A stretch of DNA of 64,000 nucleotides from Holophagales bacterium (GTDB taxonomy: Bacteria > Acidobacteriota > Thermoanaerobaculia > Multivoradales > UBA5704): contig JANNIH010000013.1 of NCBI GenBank assembly GCA_031404815.1, positions 45,196-109,195 of the forward strand. Reading direction: 5' to 3'. Position 1 is the stretch's first letter, and every line of letters begins with the position of its first letter. Of this stretch, positions 13,195 to 27,253 are shown one piece after another. The translations under genes and the position numbers were made by a program. The notes under the pieces are model-generated. The model was not told the origin of the DNA and did no database searches. It was given only the letters and a program-made list of their open reading frames with translations.

Positions 13195-15559
13195 ATGAGA
13201 AACACGAAGCTGTTAACTCTCGCCTGTCTGGCCGTCCTGGCGACCATGAATGCCGCCTCCGTCGCCGGGCAACCGACGGAATCGACCGCTCCACTGCGGC
13301 TTTACACCCTCGACAGCAACCCCCTCGAAAGGGCCGCGGAGGGGTCGAGAACCGACGAGCTCGTTCCGGACGCCGCCGAGGAGTTCGCCATCGACCTCGA
13401 CCCGCAGGCCGTCGCCGACAATCCGCCCTCATTCCTCCTCGATCTTCCCGACGGGCGCACCTTGAAGGCCGTCCGCACCCGCTTCGTCGAGTATCGGGAG
13501 GATTGGAAGAGCTGGGTCGGCTTCGCGCGCGAAGTCGGCAACAAGAAGTCCAAGGCCGGTTTCATCCATCTCGGATATCACGGCGAGCAGCTCACCGCGG
13601 TGATTGATTTAGCGGGCGAACGGTACCGGATCGTCGGCGGCTTCGAGGACAGCCATCGCCTGGTCCGGCTCTCCGATGAGAAGGGACCGCTGTCCTGCGC
13701 GTTCGACGACGCGCAGGGTCTTGGTAAGGCGATGCTCGCAGCCGAAAGCGCCGCCGAGACCGAGGCACCGACCGAGACCGAGGCCGCCGCGCTCACCGCC
13801 AACCGCGTCGATGTCCTCGCCGTCTACCCCAAGGCCTTCTTCAGCACGGGCGCCGCGGAAGAGTCGGGGCTCTTCACCTTCATTCAGGATTCGATCTCGC
13901 TGGCCAACACGGTGTTCGCGAACAGCCAGGTCGACACGAGCTACAACCTGGTCGGCATCGTGCCGATCAAAGGCGTCGCTCAGCCGTCGGGTGGTATCTT
14001 CAACGCCCTGACGTGGTTGAATGGCCTGCCCTCGGAGGTCACGACCCTGCGCAACGCCTTCGGCGCCGACGTGGTGACCATCTACGTCCCGTTTTCCTGG
14101 AATGCCAACAACTACTGCGGCGTCGCCAATCTGCCCCAGAACAACAACACGTTCCTCGCGCCCAGTGGCACGGTGAATGCGCCGATGGGTGACAAGGCGT
14201 TCACCGCCAACCGGAACGCCTGCGGCCAAGGCGATTTCACGCTGGGCCACGAGATCGGCCACAACTACGGCATGTACCACGGTGACCAAGCGGCATCCTC
14301 GCTGGCGATATACCCGTACGCCCGGGGCAAACTCATCACGGTGGGCGGGGTGACCAAGGCTACCGTCATGCACTGCGTCTGCCCGACGGGGGGTTGCTTC
14401 GTCGGGAGCGGCTCCACCTGCAACCGGATCCCCCACTTCTCCGATCCGAACATCTTCTACCTGGGAGTTGCGACAGGCATGGCCGACCGCAACAACGCCC
14501 TGGCGGCCCGGAATGCGACTCCGATCTACGCCGGCTTCAAGCCACAGAGCACGAACACTCCCCCCAACGCCAACTTCACCACCTCCTGCTCCGGCGGCAC
14601 CTGCACCTTCAACGCCGGCTCCTCGACCGACAACACCGCGCTCCCGTCGAACGGCTACTGGTGGGACTTCGGCGACGGCACTACGGGCACGGGCGTGAGC
14701 ACGAGCCACTTCTATCAGACCGCCGGCTCCTACCGGGTCCACCTGGTGGTGACCGACGGCAACGGGACGACCGGCCAGACCGATGTCGCGTGGGGCTCCG
14801 TCAACCCGTCGCCGCTCTATGAGGGCTACCACGACATCGCGAATTGCCGCGACATCTCCGGCTGGGCCTGGGACCAGGGAAGCCCCAACACTGCGGTCAA
14901 CGTCGACATCCATCGGGACGGCACCAAGGTCTCGACCGTGCTGGCGGGGCCTCTTCCGCCAGGATCTCCTGAACGCCGGCAAGGGGAACGGCTATCACGG
15001 CTTCGGCTACTTCCCGAACAGCACGTGGAAGGACGGCCAGTGGCACACGGCCACCATCAAGTACACCGGATCGGGCGCAAACCTGAGCACGACCCCCAGG
15101 AGCGTGATCTGTGCCGTGAGCTGCTTGCCCGGCCTGACGCCCACGGAGAACCTCGACACGGCGGGCATCGTCTACACCGTCGCGACGCAGTTCAGCTCAA
15201 CCCATTCCGGATTCCTCACACACCTTCGCTTCTACAGGGCGCCCGGAGAGACCGGTACCAACGTCGGCACGCTCTGGTCCAATAGCGGCACCCAGCTCGC
15301 GCAAGCGACCTTCCCCAGCAGCCCGACCTCGGGCTGGGTCGAGGTCACAATCTCGCCTGTGGCCATCACGGCGGGAACCCTCTACCGCGTCGGAGTCAAC
15401 ACCAACGTCCGGCAATCCAAGACCGGGTGCGGCATCGGCTCGGGCATCACGAACCAGGTCCTGACCGCCCACTCGGGATACTGGATCGCCGGCAACGGCG
15501 TCTTCCCGACCACTGGAAGTTGCAGCAACTTCTTCGTGGACGTGAAGTTCGATCTTTAA
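13195..15559 (+). CDS. Secreted M12B/reprolysin-like zinc metallopeptidase with PKD and C-terminal DUF4082-like domains. A +1 frameshift sits near 14945 (G-run), so this is either a sequencing error or a pseudogene.
   Basis: Signal peptide. HEIGHNYGMYHGD is a metzincin HExxHxxGxxH motif. PKD segment GYWWDFGDGTTGTGVSTSHFYQTAGSYRVHLVVTDGNGTTG. The frame then switches (STVLAG | GLFRQDLLNAGKGNGYHG...) and continues into a DUF4082-like segment (LRFYRAPGETGTNVGTLWSNSGTQLA...GWVEV). RBS AAGGAGAA. Confidence 0.6.
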
Positions 15560-15609
15560 AAGAATCGCTCTCGGTAAGGCCGGCCCTCTCCGGGCGAAAG
15601 GAGTACACC

Positions 15610-15783
15610 ATGGAGAAGAAGCAAGCGCAGAAGATATCCACCCTCACCCTGCGGACCGAAACCCTCCGCCGGCTCGACGATGCGCATCTGCCGGGAGTGG
15701 CCGGAGGAGGGAGGCTCCGCGTCCCCATCGGCTTCGCGAACGACACCACCCCGCTTTACGACGACGACACGACCGGCGGTTGA
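15610..15783 (+). CDS. GG-leader peptide, a putative RiPP/bacteriocin-type precursor (57 aa).
   Basis: MEKKQAQKISTLTLRTETLRRLDDAHLPGVAGGG + RLRVPIGFANDTTPLYDDDTTGG. The leader fits the K-rich LxLxxETLRxLxx...VxGG pattern of double-glycine natural-product precursors. RBS AAAGGAG. Confidence 0.4.
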   Translation: MEKKQAQKISTLTLRTETLRRLDDAHLPGVAGGGRLRVPIGFANDTTPLYDDDTTGG

Positions 15784-15946
15784 AACCCGCCGCGATGTGC
15801 CTCGGGATCGCCCTGCCGATCGGCAGGGTGCTTCCGAGGCGCACGTTCCCTAGGACCCTCCCTGCACCCACGCAAGAATATTCGCCTGATGGCATCGCCG
15901 ACCCGCGGCTCGGGCCGACTCGTATCATCATTGCGACCGAAACAAC

Positions 15947-15975
15947 GGGTGTGAGGCCGGCCGGTCCTCACACCC
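15947..15975. terminator. Perfect 10-bp-stem hairpin (GGGTGTGAGG-CCGGCCGGT-CCTCACACCC) between convergent genes.
   Basis: Perfect inverted repeat read directly. It is 3' to both 15610-15783 (+) and 16002-16388 (-). No U-tract, so if it terminates it is intrinsic-like but atypical. Confidence 0.35.
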
Positions 15976-16001
15976 GCGGCCATCAACAGGAAGGCGACGG
16001 C

Positions 16002-16388
16002 TTACCCGATCTCGACCGCCGGATCGGCCGGGCGCACCGTCTTCGCGGCTTGATCAGCTCGGCGGTTCCGGGGGCGGATCGGCGAGACTCGGAACTGCAC
16101 CAGGCGCTCGCTCTTCGTGCCGAGAATGGACTTGGTCACACCGCGCAGGCGACGCGCCATCTCGCGACCTTGAGTGATCATCTCCCGCAGATCCTGGGTG
16201 GCTTCCTGCCGCCTGGCCGTGCAGGAGTCCTGCCGTGCCTTCTGCGCCCGAACCCGCGCCAGGGCCGCCACCAGCGCCTCCCGCTGCGGCTGCGCCCCGG
16301 CCTGGACGCCCTCATTGTCGTTGGTCGCTTCGAGCAGCAGCTCCCAATCTCGAACGATGTCGGAAAAAGAACTGGGAATGGTCGCCAT
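16002..16388 (-). CDS. Hypothetical protein (128 aa from MATIPSSFSDIVRDW...).
   Basis: RBS GAGGAAGG precedes the internal ATG. No family recognised. Confidence 0.4.
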   Translation of the reverse strand: MATIPSSFSDIVRDWELLLEATNDNEGVQAGAQPQREALVAALARVRAQKARQDSCTARRQEATQDLREMITQGREMARRLRGVTKSILGTKSERLVQFRVSPIRPRNRRADQAAKTVRPADPAVEIG

Positions 16389-16594
16389 GATTCGCCATCC
16401 TTCCTCAATCGCGGCCGAACGCGGCGAGAGTGCCGCGCGGCCACGCCCCACGGGGCGCGAGAACGGTTCTACCAATCCAATTCCGGGAAATCTAGCTTTT
16501 CGGCCTCCAGAGCGAAAATAGTTCCCGGTCCCCGCGAAAACGAGCGATCGGCAGCGAGATCTGAAGGGTAGAGACCGATTTTTACGCCATCCGA

Positions 16595-17330
16595 AGCCAG
16601 CTCGCGACGGCTCCCAGCCAGCTCGCGACAGCTCCCATCTGGCTCGCAACGGTCGCCAGCCGGAGCGGAGCCGCCCAAGGTCTCTTTGAGCGTCTCGGAG
16701 CCGGTTCGCGACGTTCGCGAGCGAGATCGGAGAGACCGCGAGCGGGTTGCGAGCCTCTCCGATCGAGATGGGAGAGGCTCCGAGCTGGAGCGCAGCCTCC
16801 CCCAGCCGGCTCGGAGCCTTCCAAGGTAGGTTGGAGCCTCAGCGAGCCGGCTCGCGACCATCGCGAGCCGGCTCTCTGACCCCCAGATCTGGCTGCGAGC
16901 CGCTCCCATCCGGCTCGCGGAGTGTCCGAGCCCGCTCGGAACCGCTCAATAGGGGGGTGGGCGGCTGCGAGCCCGCTCGCGAAGGCTCAGAACCCGCTGC
17001 GAACCGCTCACAACCCGCTCGCAGTCGCTGCGAGCCGGCTCGGGGTCTCCCCCATCCGGATGGGAGAGGCTCAGAACCGGATGGGAACCGCTCAAATCGA
17101 GGTTGGGAGGTTGCGAGCGAGTTCGCGATGGCTCGCAGCCCGCTGGCAATCGCTCCGAGCGAGATGCAGACCGCGCCGAGCCCGCTCGGAATCGCTTCGA
17201 GCAAAGTGCCGACCGCGCCGAGTTGGATGCGACAGGCTTTAGTTGAGCCGCCGACGACCGCGAGCCGGCTTCGAGCCCTTGCGAGACTGAAGTCGCCGAG
17301 TGGGAACCGCGCTGCGAGGGGGCGACCCTC
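16595..17330. repeat. Degenerate tandem array of about 35 units of 21 bp (core CGCGAGCCGGCTCGCG, which is palindromic). Phase is strictly conserved with no indels.
   Basis: Manual segmentation shows every unit is exactly 21 nt and carries ...CCGGCTCGCGA...CGCTC... variants. The region is stop-free in several frames and yields only low-complexity heptad translations. No start codon with an RBS. Confidence 0.6.
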
Positions 17331-17359
17331 CTGACCCTCGATCTCGCCCTGGCCGCCAG

Positions 17360-17445
17360 CCACCCGACCGAGAATTGAAGATCGCGCGCAGGCGCGTGAA
17401 GGAGTTGCAAGATGGTTGATCTGAAGCACAACCCGATCCGGCAAA
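17360..17445 (+). repeat. Duplicated fragment of the higB 3' end and higA 5' end. About 95% identical to 18747-18822, with an orphan 12-codon higA start (MVDLKHNPIRQTT*).
   Basis: GAGAATTGAAGATCGCGCGCAGGCGCGTGAAGGAG..CAAGATGG.TGATCTGAAGCACA.CCCGATCCGGCA is shared, with 4 mismatches in about 75 nt. Confidence 0.6.
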
Positions 17446-17482
17446 CCACTTAAGTTAGGCCCCCCCCCCTGTGCAAGCTTCT

Positions 17483-18115
17483 TCAGCAGCAGCAGCACGG
17501 ACGCGCGGCCATTCCCCAGTGCGTGAGCTTGTTCTTGCCGATCACGGTCGCCTTTCCCGTCGCGACGTTGATGTCCACGAGCTCACCATTCGCGGTCGTC
17601 CCGTACAAACGGCAACCGAAGAAAGCCAAGCCGTAGACCGTGCTCAGCCCGGTGGAACCGATCAGGGTCGCCTGGTTCGTGGTGAGATTGATCTGCGCCA
17701 GGGACACCGAGCCTCCCGAATTCAACGCCCCAAAGAGAACGTCGTTCGAGTCGAAAGCCAGGTCGCCGCTGGAGGAAAGCCCGGGACCGTAGTTTCCTGG
17801 CACCGGCATTCCAGCTCCTGTGACCGGATTGAGCTTGACCAACTGAGTGGCGCCTGCGGCGTAGATCGTGCCGTCGGAGTGCACGGCCAGTCCGTTGGTC
17901 GTCGAACCCGTCGCGCCGACGACGGTCCCCTTTCCGGTATCGGGGTTGAGCTTCAAGAGTTGAGAGAAGCTCACCCCATACAAGGTCGGGCCATGAAACG
18001 CGATGTCCGTAACGTTGGCGATCGTCACCGGCCCGACGGCGTTCGGCGAAGCGGTCGCGGGATCGATGGTGTAGAGGGTGCTGGTCGGATCTACGACGTA
18101 GAGGCATTTGGACAT
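17483..18115 (-). CDS. Secreted beta-propeller (NHL-like) repeat protein ending in CCCC (210 aa).
   Basis: Repeated xGxLYxV/DG blades. RBS GGGGAGAA. The stop codon is followed directly by a G10/C10 homopolymer at 17460-17469. Confidence 0.5.
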   Translation of the reverse strand: MSKCLYVVDPTSTLYTIDPATASPNAVGPVTIANVTDIAFHGPTLYGVSFSQLLKLNPDTGKGTVVGATGSTTNGLAVHSDGTIYAAGATQLVKLNPVTGAGMPVPGNYGPGLSSSGDLAFDSNDVLFGALNSGGSVSLAQINLTTNQATLIGSTGLSTVYGLAFFGCRLYGTTANGELVDINVATGKATVIGKNKLTHWGMAARPCCCC

Positions 18116-18254
18116 GACGGGTTCTCCCCGAAGCGAGACCGGATGATTCCGACCTCGCTTGGGTATTCGCTTCGAGGGTCAGGATTCTGACTTTGCGACG
18201 CGACAGCCTCAATCGCGCTCTCTCTCGGTTCGGCTGGCACCTACTCGGGAACCA

Positions 18255-18449
18255 TCAGGCGGCGCTGCGGCGGCGAGGAATCGGACGGAGATCCTTCTCC
18301 GTACCGCCGATCCGGACCAGCCATGGTGCGCTTTCGAGAGCGATAAGCGCCTCCAAACCAGAACGAACGAGCGCGGTCTTCTCGCTGACGCCGGTCAGTT
18401 GCGCGGCCTGCTCCAGAAGCTGCTCGTCGATCTCCAGCGTCGTTCTCAT
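18255..18449 (-). CDS. vapB: VapB-type (MRTTLEIDEQLL...) antitoxin, orphan: no cognate PIN toxin gene.
   Basis: MRTTLEIDEQLLEQAAQLTGVSEKTALVRSGLEALI matches the VapB-family antitoxin. No PIN-domain ORF downstream on the same strand. Confidence 0.5.
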   Translation of the reverse strand: MRTTLEIDEQLLEQAAQLTGVSEKTALVRSGLEALIALESAPWLVRIGGTEKDLRPIPRRRSAA

Positions 18450-18509
18450 ATGCACATCCTCCGGGAGATCATCGACGATGGAAGGGAGCGCGCGATGGCA
18501 GACGCATCG

Positions 18510-18527
18510 GTTGCGGCCGGTTAGCGT
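18510..18527. promoter_or_regulatory. Inverted repeat GTTAGC-N6-GCTAAC, a putative autoregulatory operator immediately upstream of higB.
   Basis: Perfect 6-bp half-sites about 20 nt upstream of the higB start, which is the usual position of TA operators. Confidence 0.3.
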
Positions 18528-18545
18528 TTCTGCTAACTTCGAGGT

Positions 18546-18800
18546 GTGGCGTTTGAGATCGAGTACTTCCACGAGCGGATTCTCGCAGAGATTGAGGCGT
18601 GGCCTGTAGACGTTTTGGCGGACTACGCACGGCTCCTGGAGTTGCTGGCAGCCTACGGTCCCAGCCTGCGCCTGCCTCACTCGCGCGCTATGGGCAACGG
18701 CCTATTCGAGCTGCGGCCACGCGGTCGATCCGGTATCGGCCGAGCGAGAATTGAAGATCGCGCGCAGGCGCGTGAAGGAGCTCCAAGATGGCTGATCTGA
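18546..18800 (+). pseudogene. higB: HigB/Gp49-like (DUF891) RelE-superfamily toxin with an in-frame internal deletion of about 25 aa. It is missing the core between ...GIGRA and the C-terminal IE.RA.AR tail.
   Basis: The N-terminus FEIEYFHERILAEIE...LADYARLLELLAAYGPSLRLPHSRAMGNGLFELRPRGRSGIGRA is typical of this toxin family. The expected LY..VVLHAF.KK.QKTP segment is absent (84 aa versus about 105-110). GTG start. Confidence 0.5.
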
Positions 18801-19099
18801 AGCACAGCCCGATCCGGCACGATCATGAAGCCTTCTTGGCGAAAGCAAGACTTCGCAAAGGTTTCAGCGAAGCCTATGAAGCTCTCGATCTCGAGTACCA
18901 GGTCGTCGGCCAGCTGCTCAAGGCACGCGAACGCGCAGGACTGACTCAAGACGCGGTCGCCGAGCGGATGGGCACCACAAAGAGCGCGATCTCGCGTCTG
19001 GAATCTGCCGGGAAGCATGCGCCGTCTCTCTCGACGCTCCGGCGTTATGCCCAAGCCGTAGGCTGCGACATTCAGGTCAAGCTGGTACCGCAGAAGTGA
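18788..19099 (+). CDS. higA: HigA-type HTH (XRE) antitoxin.
   Basis: HTH segment LTQDAVAERMGTTKSAISRLES. Overlaps the higB stop. RBS GAAGGAG. Confidence 0.75.
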   Translation: MADLKHSPIRHDHEAFLAKARLRKGFSEAYEALDLEYQVVGQLLKARERAGLTQDAVAERMGTTKSAISRLESAGKHAPSLSTLRRYAQAVGCDIQVKLVPQK

Positions 19100-19172
19100 C
19101 GCTGGGCTCGCCTCCGCGGTCAATGAGCCTCGAGTTCCTGCCACGGTAGACGGGAGCCACAACGGAGCGCCA

Positions 19173-19470
19173 ATGCCTCTCGATCTCCAAGCCACCGCCG
19201 ATCTCAACCGCGACGCCATCGTTCGTCGGCTGCGAGAGAGCTACCCCGAAATCAATGCGCGTTTCGGGGTCCGGCGGATGGGGCTGTTCGGATCGTTTGC
19301 GAGCGACACGGCGAACGAAACCAGCGACGTGGATCTGATCGTCAATTTCGAGCGGCCCATCGGCCTGGGGTTCGTCGAGCTGGTCGAGTACCTGGAGACT
19401 CTCGGACGTTTCGGCGATCTCGGCCGCTACGAGTGCCGAGCTGGTGCTCGGCGTTCCCGGGGGTACTTAC
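19173..19470 (+). CDS. Nucleotidyltransferase (MNT-type, antitoxin of HEPN/MNT modules). The 3' end is uncertain: the reading frame runs on abnormally to 19682, and no HEPN partner is present.
   Basis: GLFGSFASDTANETSDVDLIVNF is the GS...DxD NTase motif. After ...VEYLETLGR the sequence no longer resembles MNT proteins and overlaps convergent brnA. Confidence 0.55.
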
Positions 19471-19721
19471 GCGGCTTGGGTTTTCCGCTTGCGAGCGGGG
19501 CGAGCGGTCTCGGCGGCGACATCCACCAGCAGACGGAGAGCCCTGTTGACCGCTTCGGAAGTCGGGAATGCCTTCGCTACATCAGGGTCCAGGACGGCGA
19601 TGTTGCTGTCGGCCATAACGCGTTCGTAGTACTTTCCCCGCACCCCCTCCCCGAGGGTCGCGAGATCGTATTCCGGGCGTAGCTCGTCCTCGGCTCTCTT
19701 AGTTGTTTTCTTGGTAGCCAT
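19467..19721 (-). CDS. BrnA-like antitoxin (84 aa).
   Basis: EYDLATLGEGVRGKYYER...LDPDVAKAFPTSEAVNRALR is the conserved core of BrnA-family antitoxins. Lies immediately downstream of a brnT remnant. Confidence 0.5.
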   Translation of the reverse strand: MATKKTTKRAEDELRPEYDLATLGEGVRGKYYERVMADSNIAVLDPDVAKAFPTSEAVNRALRLLVDVAAETARPARKRKTQAA

Positions 19722-19866
19722 GGCTTTCTCGTCTCGTGGTCAGCCTCGCCGGATCGGCAAACGTCAGAGCCAAGGGATCAAGGAACAGGGTCGCCGGCTC
19801 AGGGAAGGACACCCCATGTTTGCGGAGGTTGCTCGCCGCCTTTCTCCGGTCCCATTCGAAGAACAC
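19699..19866 (-). pseudogene. BrnT (DUF497) toxin remnant. Only the N-terminal roughly 50 aa remain (VFFEWDRRKAASNLRKHGVSFPEPATLFLDPLALTFADP...).
   Basis: FEWD..K...N..KHGVSF.E....F.DP is the BrnT N-terminal signature. The ORF stops after 55 codons inside the brnA start region, whereas full-length BrnT is about 90-100 aa. Confidence 0.45.
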
Positions 19867-20188
19867 CTTGCTATTGTAGCCCCAGAGGCCTCATCTCGAC
19901 GCCCGCGAACGCCTTAGCCAAAGCCGGCCACTTCGAGTGCCGAGCTTGTGCTTAAGCGGGTCGAGGTTCACGAGAGCGAACAGGAGCGGCACCTGGTCCA
20001 CCCGGGCGAGGAACTCACCGCGCCGGGGATCCTGCGCAATCCCGTGCCCGTAAATGCGCTCTTCGACCGCGGCTTCGGCTGACGAGATCTTCTCCGACTA
20101 GTGAGCGTCGCCCCCGGGGCGGCAGGCCTTTCGCCTTCCCGAGCCCAGAAGGCACCCGCCCGACGCCGAATACTCCGAAACTTTCTCC

Positions 20189-20440
20189 GTCGGGCACGAG
20201 ACATTTAGCGTCGGGCCGAAGAGAATCGACGTCGGGGTCGAGGGAATCTACGCCGGGTAGATAAGAACCCACGTCGGGTAGATAAGAACCCACGCCGGGT
20301 AGATGAGAATCGCAGCCGGGGTCGTGCCCATCGTCGTTGGGGTCGAGGTATTCTTCGATGAGCGCACAAGAATCTCCAGAGGGCGCACGATAATCTGCGC
20401 CGGGTTCGGGCGAATCGGCGGTTCGGGCGAAAGAATCGAC
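20189..20440. repeat. Second 21-bp-periodic degenerate tandem array (12 units; consensus GYCGGG-N6-7-AGAATC-NAC).
   Basis: Consecutive 21-nt units are gtcgggccgaagagaatcgac, gtcggggtcgagggaatctac, gccgggtagataagaacccac, gtcgggtagataagaacccac, gccgggtagatgagaatcgca, and so on. Lies 3' of the E2 gene. Confidence 0.55.
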
Positions 20441-20512
20441 GAAGCGCGTTCGAGTGCCCGCGGCCCGGCGTCGCCCCCGGGCCTTGGGAACCTGCCGGAA
20501 AGGGACGTTCGA

Positions 20513-21910
20513 TCAGAGGTACGGTTCGAGCTCGCCCCAGGTGTCTTCTTCGATCGTGCGCTTGATTTCCAGCATGAAACGGTCGGCGTCGGCTCCGTCG
20601 ACCAGGCGGTGGTCGTAGGTGATCGCGAGGTAGCACATGGTCTTGATCGCGATGTTGTCGTTGCCGTCTTGGTCGGTGATCACGATCGGGCGCTTTTCGA
20701 TCGCTCCGACGCCGAGGATGGCGACTTGGGGCTGGTTGATCACCGGGGTGCCGAACAGGCTGCCGAAGACTCCTGGGTTGGTGATCGTGAAGGTGCCGCC
20801 CGAGGCTTCTTCGGGCTTGAGCTTCTTGGTGCGGGCGCGGTCGGCGAGGTCGTTCGCACTCTTGGCGAGACCGACAAGCGAGAGCTGATCGGCTTTCTTG
20901 ATGACGGGCACGATCAGGCCGTGGCCGAGATCGACCGCCATGCCGAGGTTGATGTCCTTCTTGTAGACGATGTTCGTGCCGTCGATCGAGGCGTTCACCT
21001 GCTTGTAGGCCTTCAAACCGTTGACCACCGCCTTGAAGATGAACGGCATGAAGGTGAGCTTGGTCGCTTCCTTCTTGAAAAAGCCGTCCTTGGCGCGGGC
21101 ACGGAGCTTCGCGATCTTCGAGAAATCGACGTGGAACACCGTTGTCACGTGCGCCGAGGTCGCCTTCGAGTAGACCATGTGCGCCGCCGTGATCTGGCGA
21201 ATCTTGGACATCGGCTCGATCTCGACGTTGTCGTTCGGGCCATAGGCCGCGACGGAAAAGCCGCCGGTCGGACGCTGCGCGGGCGCGGTGGCTTGAGCCG
21301 GCGGAACCGGAGCCGCCGCGGCAGGTGCGGCCATCGGAGCCGCCGGAGCAGCCGGAACGGTAGGCGCCGCGGCGCCCGACTTCTTCGCTTCGACCACCGA
21401 CAGAATGTCGTCCTTGGTCACCCGGCCATGGGCGCCGCTGCCGGAGAGGGTTGAAATGTCGATCCCCTCCTGCGCCGCGATGTTGCGGACCAGCGGGCTC
21501 GAGAAGTTCCGCAGGCGATCCTCTTCGGTCGCGGGCGCACCTGCGCTCGGTGGGGTTGCAGCAACGGCGGCTACGGGGGCCGCTTCCGGCGCGACAGCCG
21601 CCGCAGGAACCGGTGTTGGTTCGGCGGCGGGAGCCGGAGCCGCTACAGGAGCAGCCGCGGCAGCCGGAGCGTCTGCGCCGCCGATCATCGCGACCACTTT
21701 ATTGACGGCGACGGTCTCACCCTCTTGATTCAGGATCTCGGTGAGCACGCCCGCGGCCGGACTCGGAATCTCCGCGTCGACCTTGTCGGTCGAAATTTCG
21801 AACAGCGGCTGGTCGCGTTCGACCTTGTCTCCCACCTTCACCAGCCACTTGGTGATCGTTCCCTCGGCGATCGACTCGCCCATCTGGGGCATCACGACTT
21901 CGGTTGCCAT
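20513..21910 (-). CDS. Dihydrolipoamide acyltransferase (E2) of a 2-oxoacid dehydrogenase complex.
   Basis: Lipoyl domain with ...EISTDKVDAEIPSP. Ala/Pro linker. Catalytic domain with DHRLVDGA. Confidence 0.9.
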   Translation of the reverse strand: MATEVVMPQMGESIAEGTITKWLVKVGDKVERDQPLFEISTDKVDAEIPSPAAGVLTEILNQEGETVAVNKVVAMIGGADAPAAAAAPVAAPAPAAEPTPVPAAAVAPEAAPVAAVAATPPSAGAPATEEDRLRNFSSPLVRNIAAQEGIDISTLSGSGAHGRVTKDDILSVVEAKKSGAAAPTVPAAPAAPMAAPAAAAPVPPAQATAPAQRPTGGFSVAAYGPNDNVEIEPMSKIRQITAAHMVYSKATSAHVTTVFHVDFSKIAKLRARAKDGFFKKEATKLTFMPFIFKAVVNGLKAYKQVNASIDGTNIVYKKDINLGMAVDLGHGLIVPVIKKADQLSLVGLAKSANDLADRARTKKLKPEEASGGTFTITNPGVFGSLFGTPVINQPQVAILGVGAIEKRPIVITDQDGNDNIAIKTMCYLAITYDHRLVDGADADRFMLEIKRTIEEDTWGELEPYL

Positions 21911-26816: not shown

Positions 26817-27032
26817 ATGGCGCTCCAGTTCGATGTCATCGTCGAAAAAGATTCCGACGGCTATTTCGTGGCTTCGGTCCCGGTCTTGCCGGGCTGTCAC
26901 ACCCAGGCGAGGTCCCTCGACGAGCTGATGGCGCGAATCCGAGAGGCTATCGAGCTTTGCCTCGAGGTCGAGGGAGCGCCGGGCGAGTCTCTGGACTTTG
27001 TTGGAGTCCAGCGGATCACGGTCGCCGCATGA
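26817..27032 (+). CDS. hicB: HicB-family antitoxin.
   Basis: UPF0150/HicB N-terminal fold (FDVIVEKDSDGYFVASVPVLPGCHTQARSLDE...). The ATGA overlap places the hicA start on its stop. Confidence 0.75.
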   Translation: MALQFDVIVEKDSDGYFVASVPVLPGCHTQARSLDELMARIREAIELCLEVEGAPGESLDFVGVQRITVAA

Positions 27033-27253
27033 CGACCTGGCCGAGCCTTTCGGGTAAGCAAGTGCTCGCCGCTCTCTCCCGAGTAGGTTTCGAGACCCTC
27101 CGCGTCAAAGGCAGTCACCACTTCCTGCGCCACCCCGACGGCCGATCCACGGTCGTCCCGGTTCACTCCAACGAAGCGATCGGACGTGGTCTCCTCGCCA
27201 AGATCCTGCGCGACTGCGACCTGAGCCGCGAGCGGTTTCGAGAGCCGCTCTGA
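27029..27253 (+). CDS. hicA: HicA-family mRNA interferase toxin.
   Basis: LSGKQVLAALSRVGFETLRVKGSHHFLRHPDGRSTVVPVH is the HicA (YcfA) signature. Confidence 0.75.
   Translation: MTTWPSLSGKQVLAALSRVGFETLRVKGSHHFLRHPDGRSTVVPVHSNEAIGRGLLAKILRDCDLSRERFREPL

What the first reader, a model, noticed from the sequence alone, without database searches (positions are those of the whole stretch)
17360..19953. Toxin-antitoxin graveyard: four antitoxins intact, every cognate toxin missing, deleted or truncated
Within 2.5 kb four modules show the same fate. (1) A VapB-like antitoxin with no PIN toxin. (2) A HigB/Gp49-like toxin keeping its N- and C-termini but missing about 25 core residues, next to an intact HigA with a GTTAGC-N6-GCTAAC operator. 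(3) An MNT nucleotidyltransferase whose 3' end is scrambled and which has no HEPN partner. (4) A BrnT toxin cut to about 55 aa abutting an intact BrnA-like antitoxin. In addition the higB-3'/higA-5' junction (about 75 nt, 95% identical) is duplicated 1.3 kb upstream at 17370-17445. A 22-nt motif (CGAGTGCCGAGCTNGTGCT) is shared between the MNT tail (19428) and a fragment at 19931. This is the pattern expected from toxin loss under antitoxin retention (anti-addiction), or from repeated illegitimate recombination at a hotspot.
Basis: partly seen in the sequence, partly recalled or inferred. Interest (0 to 1): 0.6.

Follow-up and report, generated by a model that had tools for sequence, protein, structure and literature searches.

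The report
Decaying toxin-antitoxin islet, toxins lost first
A 2.6-kb stretch next to a core metabolic gene of an uncultured Thermoanaerobaculia bacterium holds four toxin-antitoxin modules whose toxins have all been deleted or broken, and sister strains still carry intact or further-decayed versions; this is a clear but ordinary case of the known way these modules erode.

Summary
Window 17361-19952 holds four modules.

- **vapB:** an orphan with no PIN gene or PIN remnant.
- **higB:** it carries a 77-nt frameshifting internal deletion, next to an intact higA and a conserved GTTAGC-N6-GCTAAC palindrome.
- **mntA:** it is homologous to its 109-codon family only up to codon 77, and it has no hepT.
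- **brnT:** it has an in-frame 37-codon internal deletion and overlaps an intact BrnT-linked antitoxin gene.

Both repeats exist (80 nt at 94%; 28 nt at 25/28).

Independent assemblies confirm the junctions and show different states. Two sister assemblies keep an intact 108-aa higB. One sister strain has also lost brnT' and half of brnA. A related species has intact mntA-hepT at the same spot, directly 3' of the E2 gene.

"Four antitoxins intact" is overstated. MntA is itself truncated, and the window's VapB carries substitutions at near-invariant positions.

The best reading is neutral, toxin-first erosion of a toxin-antitoxin (TA) islet at a high-turnover synteny breakpoint, not selected antitoxin retention. 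This process has already been described, for example in Photorhabdus (Belot et al. 2026). Interest is low to moderate.

Two things remain unexplained: 21-nt-period arrays flank the islet, and junctions recur at one small hairpin.

The parts
17361..17443 (+). Isolated fragment of a second higBA copy: the last 16 codons of higB plus the first about 10 codons of higA (copy 1 of the 80-nt repeat)
   Evidence: It is 94% identical to 18740-18819 and 93% identical to the intact higBA of L003 and L004. It sits at the same place in the independent assembly L004.
17461..17470 (.). Poly-C tract: C10 here, C8 in sister strain L004
   Evidence: Direct reading and comparison. C10 is also present in Logan contig L179.
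17483..18115 (-). DUF4394-like beta-propeller gene, 210 aa, intact. It is not a TA gene but occupies the position where vapC would be.
   Evidence: PF14339 E 3e-9. Stand-alone homologs of 202-214 aa align end to end. Against L004 there are 12 nt differences but only 1 aa difference.
18255..18449 (-). Orphan vapB antitoxin gene, 64 aa. The ORF is intact but it carries non-conservative changes at family-invariant positions 42-47.
   Evidence: PF09957 E 7e-15. No PIN remnant. Substitution analysis.
18520..18537 (.). GTTAGC-N6-GCTAAC palindrome, 8 nt upstream of the higB start; likely the HigA operator
   Evidence: It is unique in the window. The same arms, with a different spacer, sit at the same distance from the start of a distant higBA in an unrelated context (L176 1477-1494).
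18546..18795 (+). higB pseudogene. Codons 1-67 run from 18546 to about 18745, the 77-nt deletion junction is at 18740-18746, and the last 16 codons plus the stop (18745-18795) are now out of frame.
   Evidence: Gp49 profile positions 2-54 of 90. The family is 108 aa and 25 codons are missing. Comparison with intact L003 and L004. The junction is present in L179.
18788..19099 (+). higA antitoxin gene, 103 aa, Xre-type HTH, intact
   Evidence: HTH_3 E 3e-14. L003 and L004 have a 103-aa ortholog that differs at 2 residues.
19173..19403 (+). Truncated mntA (MNT nucleotidyltransferase antitoxin of a type VII MNT-HepT module): codons 1-77 of 109. The ORF then reads through unrelated sequence to 19682.
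   Evidence: NTP_transf_2 positions 8-44 of 93. Family alignment. Nucleotide and protein homology to L015 both end at 19403.
19401..19463 (.). 63-nt element downstream of brnA. It contains the hairpin GCCGAGC-TGGT-GCTCGGC (19435-19452) and copy A1 of the 28-nt repeat (19421-19448).
   Evidence: An 86% paralog lies at L001 14-73. L001 diverges from the window inside the hairpin at 19445, and contigs L002 and L003 end there.
19467..19721 (-).
   Evidence: 4563 homologs of 75-100 aa with no Pfam domain. Homologs overlap a full-length brnT in L005 and L011.
19699..19866 (-). brnT remnant: 39 N-terminal and 16 C-terminal codons, with an in-frame 111-nt deletion (junction 19749|19750)
   Evidence: BrnT profile positions 1-36 of 77. 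Alignment with the 92-aa and 95-aa BrnT of L005 and L011. The same allele is in L001 and L002.
19925..19952 (.). Copy A2 of the 28-nt repeat. It holds only the left arm of the hairpin and lies upstream of the brnT promoter.
   Evidence: In L004 the two copies differ at one position, as derived from the differences listed.
16570..17300 (.). Left flanking array of about 35 units with a 21-nt period, many containing CGAGCCSGCTCG; function unknown
   Evidence: No gene was called here in L004.
20098..20497 (.). Right flanking array of about 14-19 units with a 21-nt period (GAAYCNACGYCGGG...); function unknown
   Evidence: L001 has one unit fewer.
20513..21910 (-). 2-oxoacid dehydrogenase E2 gene. 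It is the conserved right-hand anchor of the islet, and synteny with relatives ends at its 3' end.

Best explanation
This is a small chromosomal toxin-antitoxin islet caught while it erodes. It has no function as a unit.

Four minimal TA operons (vapBC, higBA, mntA-hepT and brnT with its antitoxin) accumulated in a high-turnover spot directly 3' of the E2 gene of a branched-chain-type 2-oxoacid dehydrogenase operon, in an uncultured Thermoanaerobaculia (Acidobacteriota) lineage. They are now being lost through small deletions with little or no microhomology and through larger illegitimate deletions.

A cell can lose a toxin at any time, but it can lose an antitoxin only after the toxin is dead. 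Toxins therefore disappear first and antitoxin genes persist for a while as orphans. That order of loss, not selection for the antitoxins, produces the pattern.

Shown:
- the exact lesions in each module;
- the intact or more decayed states in sister genomes;
- the breakdown of synteny at this point.

Inferred:
- the remaining antitoxins are probably still transcribed from their own promoters, with HigA repressing through the conserved palindrome, but they neutralise nothing locally;
- the 83-nt higBA fragment is the remnant of a second higBA copy.
For: **Lesions.**
- higB lacks 77 nt, which is 25 codons plus a frameshift.
- brnT lacks 111 nt in frame.
- mntA ends at codon 77 of 109 and hepT is absent.
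- vapC is absent without a trace, although about 90% of evaluable vapB relatives have a PIN-size ORF directly after vapB (two sampled are PIN).

**Different states in close relatives.**
- L003 and L004 (98-99.7% identical) have an intact 108-aa higB.
- L004 has separately lost 252 nt covering brnT' and the 5' half of brnA.
- L001 has a different neighbour beyond brnA.
- L015 (86% identical in the E2-E1 region) has intact mntA (109 aa) and hepT (116 aa) directly 3' of E2.

**Relaxed constraint on an orphan.** Between the window and L004, VapB shows 4 non-synonymous of 6 differences. The neighbouring DUF4394-like gene shows 1 of 12 (Fisher p = 0.02). The window's residues at VapB positions 42, 43, 45 and 47 are seen in 0-2 of 80 relatives.

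**High-turnover spot.** Genes upstream of E2 are syntenic in dozens of relatives, but nothing on the islet side is shared.

**Not an artefact.** The junctions are reproduced in L004, L003, L002, L001 and L179.

[quoted passage not shown] Orphan antitoxins are abundant (PMC7192599).
Against: brnA and its surroundings (19445-19796) are identical between the window and L001, although those two differ by about 1.5-2% elsewhere. This could reflect selection or recent exchange rather than neutral drift.

Three antitoxin ORFs keep their promoters, their start contexts and their overlaps with the toxin remnants. That is also what selection for antitoxin expression would give.

The sample sizes for the substitution tests are tiny. 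The four VapB changes lie within six codons, so they could be a single mutational or conversion event.

No expression or activity data exist.
Confidence: 0.8

Rival explanations
1. Selected antitoxin retention (anti-addiction or anti-defence immunity). The orphan VapB, HigA and BrnT-linked antitoxin are kept because they neutralise homologous toxins brought in by plasmids, phages or paralogous modules. Losing the cognate toxins removes the cost and keeps the protection.
For: Three antitoxin ORFs are full length and keep their upstream signals. The higBA palindrome is conserved. Both toxin lesions leave the toxin-antitoxin overlap untouched. brnA is identical in strains that differ by about 2% elsewhere. 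The concept is established for ccd (PMC2654758) and has been proposed for orphan antitoxins (PMC7192599).
Against: MntA, which is also an antitoxin, is truncated. The window's VapB has lost near-invariant residues in its C-terminal part. Strain L004 has deleted half of brnA. The higB deletion is strain-specific and recent, so the intact higA is uninformative. Small deletions inside a 280-330-nt gene are internal by default, so the preserved overlaps need no selective explanation.
Confidence: 0.1
2. A site-directed exchange mechanism. Minimal TA operons are moved in and out at defined short sequences (the GCCGAGC-N4-GCTCGGC hairpin, the CACCCGACCGAG site in higB, and the flanking 21-nt arrays) by an unrecognised recombinase or by hairpin-induced replication errors. 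The truncations would be by-products of imprecise cassette exchange.
For: Three independent discontinuities fall within about 5 nt of each other in the hairpin loop: the end of repeat copy A2, the point where L001 diverges, and the window junction. The brnT'-brnA unit is bracketed by 28-nt direct repeats. The left end of the higBA fragment (L003 position 430) lies 3-9 nt from the right end of the 77-nt higB deletion (L003 433-439). In L015, mntA-hepT is bracketed by two 91%-identical copies of the E2 3' end.
Against: No integrase, transposase or other recombinase domain appears among the genes called across window 15.9-29.9 kb. The GTTAGG next to the higBA fragment is GATAGG in L004. The hairpin motif occurs only here in the window. 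The hairpin element is not significantly similar to the arrays. The coincidences are few, roughly a 5% chance for the higB one. Contig ends at the hairpin may only reflect branching in assembly graphs.
Confidence: 0.06
3. An assembly artefact. The truncations and repeats come from chimeric joins in a metagenome assembly of mixed strains.
For: Short contigs from other assemblies break at the repeats (L002, L003 and L179 end in the 28-nt or 80-nt repeats). Strain mixtures clearly exist, since intact and deleted higB alleles occur in sibling runs.
Against: The 50-kb NCBI MAG contig L004 reproduces the gene order, the higBA fragment, the poly-C junction and the mntA'/brnA junction. L179 contains the exact 77-nt deletion junction. 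L001 and L002 contain the brnT deletion. An assembler cannot create a 77-nt deletion from a 5-of-6-nt repeat.
Confidence: 0.03

Closest known systems
Chromosomal TA islets and their two-step erosion (Belot, Payelleville, Jurenas, Rocha, Van Melderen 2026, Photorhabdus; PMC13617665). Earlier: decay of ccdO157 in E. coli (Mine et al. 2009, cited in PMC2654758).
   Same: Several type II TA modules cluster in a small spot of high gene turnover with no mobile-element genes nearby. Loss occurs through small deletions, truncations or complete deletion. Toxin inactivation comes before antitoxin loss. Closely related genomes show different states.
   Different: The phylum is different (uncultured Thermoanaerobaculia, Acidobacteriota). 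All four adjacent modules are toxin-dead at once. One module is a type VII MNT-HepT pair. The islet is flanked by unexplained 21-nt-period arrays. No experimental validation exists here.
HigBA modules of the Gp49/DUF891 (PF05973) toxin plus Xre-HTH antitoxin type
   Same: The gene order is toxin first, with the higA start overlapping the higB stop. The antitoxin has an HTH_3 domain. A palindrome sits just upstream of the toxin start.
   Different: The toxin here has lost 77 nt (profile positions 55-90 are no longer in frame), so the module is not functional as a TA pair. An extra 83-nt fragment of a second copy lies 1.3 kb upstream.
Type VII MntA-HepT (MNT-HEPN) modules
   Same: The N-terminal 77 residues, including the GS...DVD nucleotidyltransferase motif, are 82% identical to an MntA whose HepT partner is intact at the same genomic position in a related species (L015).
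   Different: The last 32 codons of mntA and the whole of hepT are missing. The ORF runs on into antisense brnA sequence.
BrnT/BrnA type II module (Brucella abortus prototype; PF04365 toxin)
   Same: The first 39 residues match the BrnT profile. The gene order is toxin first, with a 23-nt overlap, as in full-length relatives (L005, L011).
   Different: The toxin lacks its central 37 residues. The partner protein matches no Pfam family, including the canonical BrnA model. It belongs to a large unannotated family of 4563 homologs that is linked to BrnT.
Anti-addiction modules and orphan antitoxins (Saavedra De Bast et al. 2008, via PMC2654758; Klebsiella orphan antitoxins, PMC7192599)
   Same: Antitoxin genes persist without a working cognate toxin.
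   Different: There is no evidence here that they are maintained by selection. One is truncated, one is degenerating, and one is deleted in a sister strain.

Membership tests
VapB antitoxin (PF09957) of vapBC | Match to the family profile above the curated cut-off | tested here: met
   55.1 bits against a cut-off of 23.4; E 6.9e-15
VapB antitoxin (PF09957) of vapBC | A PIN-domain toxin gene immediately downstream | tested here: not met
   Only 139 nt separate vapB from an unrelated gene. tblastn with 63 partner proteins finds nothing nearby. The two sampled partner ORFs of relatives are PIN domains.
VapB antitoxin (PF09957) of vapBC | Family-conserved residues in the C-terminal segment (positions 42-47: K/R-R-L-A-K/R-L) | tested here: not met
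   The window has P-W-L-V-R-I and sister strain L004 has R-R-L-D-R-L. Tallies come from 80 relatives.
HigB, Gp49/DUF891 toxin (PF05973) | Full-length match to the 90-position profile in one frame | tested here: not met
   Only positions 2-54 match. The intact allele P0001 matches positions 2-90. The window has a 77-nt deletion.
HigA, Xre-type antitoxin of higBA | An HTH_3 domain, a gene directly after and overlapping higB, and a palindrome in the promoter region | tested here: met
   HTH_3 at 53.4 bits. The ATG overlaps the higB stop (direct reading). The palindrome is conserved in L176. DNA binding was not tested.
Type VII MntA-HepT | A full-length MNT nucleotidyltransferase (about 109 aa) with the GSx(n)DxD motif | tested here: not met
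   The motif is present (GSFASDTANETSDVD) but homology stops at residue 77. NCBIfam MntA scores 25 bits against a cut-off of 60.
Type VII MntA-HepT | An adjacent HepT/HEPN toxin gene | tested here: not met
   No tblastn hit in the window. The gene is present and intact in L015 and L012.
BrnT toxin (PF04365) | Full-length match to the 77-position profile | tested here: not met
   Positions 1-36 only. The full-length relative matches 1-77. The window has a 37-codon in-frame deletion.
BrnA antitoxin (canonical Pfam BrnA family) | Sequence match to the family | tested here: not met
   No Pfam, NCBIfam or PDB sequence match. The antitoxin role is inferred only from the conserved overlap with brnT in L005 and L011.
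Eroding chromosomal TA islet (model of PMC13617665) | Several TA modules clustered in a spot of high gene turnover, without adjacent mobile-element genes | tested here: met
   Four modules lie within 2.6 kb. Synteny is lost on this side of E2. Strain-level indels are present. No recombinase domain is found among the neighbouring genes.
Eroding chromosomal TA islet (model of PMC13617665) | Toxin inactivation precedes antitoxin loss | tested here: met
   The window has dead higB and brnT next to intact antitoxin genes. L004 shows the next step, with brnA also deleted.
Integron cassette array | An IntI integrase and attC sites bounding each cassette | tested here: not met
   No integrase appears among the called genes of window 15.9-29.9 kb. 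The only GTTAGGC next to a module is not conserved in L004. No systematic attC model search was run.

The most novel reading that the evidence does not exclude
The module boundaries may not be random. Minimal TA operons in this lineage could be exchanged at short structured sites, namely the GCCGAGC-N4-GCTCGGC hairpin and perhaps the flanking 21-nt-period arrays. The agent would be an unrecognised recombination or replication-slippage mechanism anchored at the 3' end of the E2 gene, and the toxin truncations would be scars of imprecise exchange.
Probability: 0.06. Interest if true: 0.6.

Novelty: new member of a known kind. Interest (0 to 1): 0.3.

Why it matters
This is a compact, base-resolved natural example of how chromosomal toxin-antitoxin modules die. 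Before, during and after states are all available in near-identical strains of an uncultured Acidobacteriota lineage.

It supports the view that orphan antitoxins are mostly transient leftovers of toxin-first decay, not selected immunity genes. It also shows that the process described in Gammaproteobacteria operates in a distant phylum.

It does not open a new question. Its practical value is as an annotation warning: these ORFs would be called as TA genes, and the read-through mntA' ORF of 150-169 aa is an artefact of truncation. It is also a pointer to two unexplained sequence features nearby.

Tried and rejected
**Hidden remnants.**
- I looked for remnants in the unassigned stretches 19867-20215 and 18116-18254 by six-frame Pfam scans at E up to 10. 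Nothing credible came up.
- Two tblastn searches of the plasmid collection found no match.
- Rfam at E up to 1 over 15500-21000 gave two chance-level hits.
- The promoter and terminator consensus scan found nothing above the shuffle expectation.

**Hairpin element versus arrays.** I tested whether the 63-nt hairpin element or the flanking arrays are homologous to the 21-nt array that follows hepT in L012. Local alignment scores are within the range of shuffles, so only the period is shared.

**Integron idea.** I considered an integron-like cassette array because GTTAGGC sits next to the higBA fragment. I rejected it: there is no integrase, and the site is not conserved in L004.

**Gene conversion.** I considered that the 77-nt deletion arose by gene conversion from the upstream fragment. 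The window's copy 2 does share 3 of its 4 local differences with copy 1. However, the pattern is patchy and the junction contains no flank sequence from copy 1, so this remains unresolved.

**DUF4394-like gene.** I considered that it might also be a fragment. I rejected this because stand-alone homologs of the same length exist.

**Look-ups that failed.** Exact-sequence look-ups of the window's HigA and of the 84-aa HigB' product found nothing on record.

**Failed script.** A fuzzy-regex scan timed out and was replaced by blastn-short.

Full report
**What is there.** The window is GC-rich (62-70%). It comes from an uncultured Thermoanaerobaculia (Acidobacteriota) bacterium. The nearest E2 relatives are all MAGs of that class. 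Near-identical contigs exist in NCBI MAGs GCA_031396975.1 and GCA_031400485.1 and in Logan assemblies of runs SRR20217199 and SRR20217202.

Between 17361 and 19952 I find, in order:
- an 83-nt fragment of a higBA junction (17361-17443);
- a C10 tract (17461-17470);
- an intact DUF4394-like gene (17483-18115, minus strand);
- vapB (18255-18449, minus strand);
- a palindrome (18520-18537);
- a broken higB (18546-18795) and an intact higA (18788-19099);
- a truncated mntA (19173-19403);
- a 63-nt hairpin element (19401-19463);
- a BrnT-linked antitoxin-like gene (19467-19721, minus strand);
- a brnT remnant (19699-19866, minus strand);
- a 28-nt repeat copy (19925-19952).

These assignments rest.

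**Checking each claim against full-length families.**

*HigB.* Nearly all of the best 120 homologs are 108 aa. The alignment shows the window lacks exactly 25 residues, FYCF...TPD. A Logan contig (L003) and a 50-kb MAG contig (L004) are 98-99.7% identical to the window here and carry an intact 108-aa higB. Relative to them, the window lacks 77 nt between an imperfect 6-nt repeat (CCGAGC/CCGACC). The remaining C-terminal codons are therefore out of frame. A Logan contig from SRR20217199 (L179) is 100% identical to window 17375-18774 and contains the deletion junction, so real reads carry this allele.

*BrnT.* A relative with 85% identity over the retained residues is 92 aa and overlaps its antitoxin gene by 23 nt (L005). 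The window has the same overlap but lacks 111 nt (37 codons) in frame. This allele is also in L001 and L002.

*MNT.* The family is 109 aa. Both protein and nucleotide homology to the closest full-length gene stop at codon 77, position 19403. It belongs to a 63-nt element that follows brnA and has an 86% paralog elsewhere (L001 14-73). No HepT remnant is detectable.

*VapB.* In 80 metagenomic loci with 61-85% identical VapB, 63 have a 114-125-aa ORF starting at the vapB stop. Ten are cut by a contig end and seven lack such an ORF. Two sampled partners are PIN domains. None of the partners detects anything near vapB in the window.

**Antitoxins are not all intact.** In MNT-HepT systems the nucleotidyltransferase is the antitoxin. 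This is established knowledge of type VII systems, and the NCBIfam model name agrees. Here that gene is truncated.

The window's VapB differs from that of strain L004 at four residues within six codons. At those positions the window has P, W, V and I, where 80 relatives have K/R (80/80), R (77/80), A (76/80) and L (79/80).

Between the same two strains, the adjacent DUF4394-like gene has 12 nucleotide differences but one amino-acid change. VapB has 4 amino-acid changes from 6 nucleotide differences (Fisher p = 0.02). That is what relaxed constraint on an orphan looks like, although the numbers are small.

**Comparison across genomes.**
- L004 has the same gene order, the same 83-nt fragment and the same mntA'/brnA junction. 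It has a C8 tract instead of C10, an intact higB, and a separate 252-nt deletion that removes all of brnT' and the 5' half of brnA.
- L001 shares brnT'-brnA but diverges from the window inside the hairpin at 19445.
- In a related species (L015/L016, 86% identical across the E2 and E1 genes), an intact mntA (109 aa) and hepT (116 aa) lie directly 3' of E2. They are bracketed by two 91%-identical copies of the last 325 nt of the E2 region.
- In 80 genomes with an E2 ortholog, the genes upstream of E2 (E1 beta, lipoamide dehydrogenase, a metallo-beta-lactamase-fold gene) are syntenic. None of the islet genes, and none of the window's genes to the left of the islet, is found beside E2, apart from one weak kinase hit.

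The 3' end of E2 is therefore a synteny breakpoint and a variable spot. The window and L004 also differ to the left of 15914.

An intact hicBA pair lies 7 kb away at 26817-27253, so toxin loss is local and not genome-wide.

**Interpretation.** The simplest account is toxin-first erosion of a TA islet in a permissive, high-turnover region. Small deletions of 77, 111 and 252 nt and larger ones (vapC; mntA 3' end plus hepT) occur independently in different strains. Toxins can be lost at any time, but antitoxins only afterwards. A snapshot therefore shows dead toxins beside living antitoxins (the window) and, later, dead antitoxins too (brnA in L004, mntA in all strains, a degenerating vapB).

This is the model proposed for Photorhabdus chromosomes. 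There, TA systems cluster in small spots with high turnover, often without mobile-element genes, and decay in two steps with the toxin first (PMC13617665). Orphan antitoxins are likewise common in Klebsiella (PMC7192599).

The anti-addiction idea (PMC2654758) cannot be excluded for HigA or the BrnT-linked protein, but the data give it no specific support. The internal position of the two toxin deletions needs no selective explanation, because small deletions within a 280-330-nt gene are internal by default.

The palindrome upstream of higB is probably the HigA operator. The same arms occur at the same distance from the start of an 86%-identical higB in an unrelated genomic context. Binding is inferred, not shown.

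**What remains unexplained.**
1. The brnT'-brnA unit is flanked by 28-nt direct repeats. Three discontinuities fall within about 5 nt of each other in the loop of the GCCGAGC-N4-GCTCGGC hairpin: the end of copy A2, the divergence point of L001, and the contig ends of L002 and L003.
2. The left end of the 83-nt higBA fragment lies 3-9 nt from the right end of the 77-nt deletion.
3. Within the 80-nt repeat, the window's higBA differs from L003 and L004 at 4 sites, against 5 in the flanking about 990 nt. Three of those four sites match the upstream fragment. This suggests exchange between copies, but the pattern is patchy.
4. The islet is flanked by arrays with a 21-nt period (16570-17300 and 20098-20497). 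Arrays of the same period but unrelated unit sequence occur in other Thermoanaerobaculia loci, one of them immediately after an intact hepT. No gene is called in them, and no Rfam family matches.

These points leave a small probability that boundaries are set by a site- or structure-directed process.

**Verdict.** The "graveyard" description is right. The selective interpretation is not supported. The phenomenon is already known. Novelty: a new instance of a known kind. Interest: 0.3.

Noticed in passing
window 16570-17300 and 20098-20497; also L012 3700-3950, L022 11656-12223, L033 9808-10207: Long tandem arrays with a strict 21-nt period flank the TA islet on both sides. The left array has about 35 units, many with the palindrome CGAGCCSGCTCG. 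The right array has about 14-19 units (GAAYCNACGYCGGG...) and differs by one unit between strains. Arrays of the same period but unrelated unit sequence occur in other Thermoanaerobaculia loci, one directly after an intact hepT. No gene is called in them, there is no Rfam match, and alignment scores between arrays are no better than shuffles.
   Followed up: partly
window 19435-19452 (hairpin) within 19401-19463; L001 14-73: A 63-nt element with a perfect 7-bp hairpin lies downstream of brnA and has an 86% paralog in another contig. Three independent sequence discontinuities and two contig ends fall inside its loop. It may be a fragile or recombinogenic site, or the pattern may only reflect branching in assembly graphs.
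   Followed up: partly
window 17461-17470: A homopolymer C10 tract lies 13 nt beyond the stop of the DUF4394-like gene. It is C8 in sister strain L004 and C10 in Logan contig L179, so its length varies between strains.
   Followed up: partly
L015 1508-1832 and 2862-3187 (also L015 828-871): In a related species, the intact mntA-hepT pair is bracketed by two 91%-identical copies of the E2 gene's last about 275 nt plus its terminator hairpin. A further 44-nt internal E2 piece lies upstream. This suggests acquisition by recombination anchored in the flanking core gene.
   Followed up: partly
window 18740-18819 versus 17364-17443 and L003/L004: Within the 80-nt repeat the window differs from the otherwise 99.5%-identical L003 and L004 at 4 sites, and 3 of them match the upstream fragment. 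This is a possible gene-conversion mosaic between the two copies. It changes HigA residues 6 and 7 (H/S against Y/N).
   Followed up: partly
window 26817-27253: An apparently intact hicB (71 aa) and hicA (74 aa) pair lies 7 kb from the islet and is present in L004 with the same Pfam calls. Not every toxin in the neighbourhood is dead.
   Followed up: partly
window 15914 (L004 1273); hairpin at about 15945-15975: The window and the 98%-identical strain L004 lose all similarity to the left of 15914, next to a GC-rich hairpin downstream of the 128-aa hypothetical gene (16002-16388, minus strand). This is another strain-level breakpoint, so the variable region extends beyond the TA islet.
   Followed up: no
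window 15610-15783 and 13195-15559: A 57-aa ORF (MEKKQAQKISTLTLRTETLRRLDDAHLPGVAGGG...) resembles a double-glycine leader peptide precursor. It follows a large secreted-protease-like gene that appears split between two overlapping frames (13195-15285 and 14783-15559). That split could be a frameshift or a sequencing error.
   Followed up: no
L001 1-255 and 2024-2134: In MAG contig JANNPY010001131.1 the E2 gene is homologous to the window only from position 21234 onward and is called as a 270-aa product. Unrelated sequence precedes it. Beyond brnA, a different ORF start (MNEAHVAWRT...) replaces mntA'. This is either further rearrangement in that strain or a chimeric short contig.
   Followed up: no
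window 19445-19796: This 352-nt stretch, covering brnA and part of brnT', is identical between the window and L001, although the two differ by 1.5-2% elsewhere, including in the E2 gene. That hints at recent exchange of this module between strains.
   Followed up: partly
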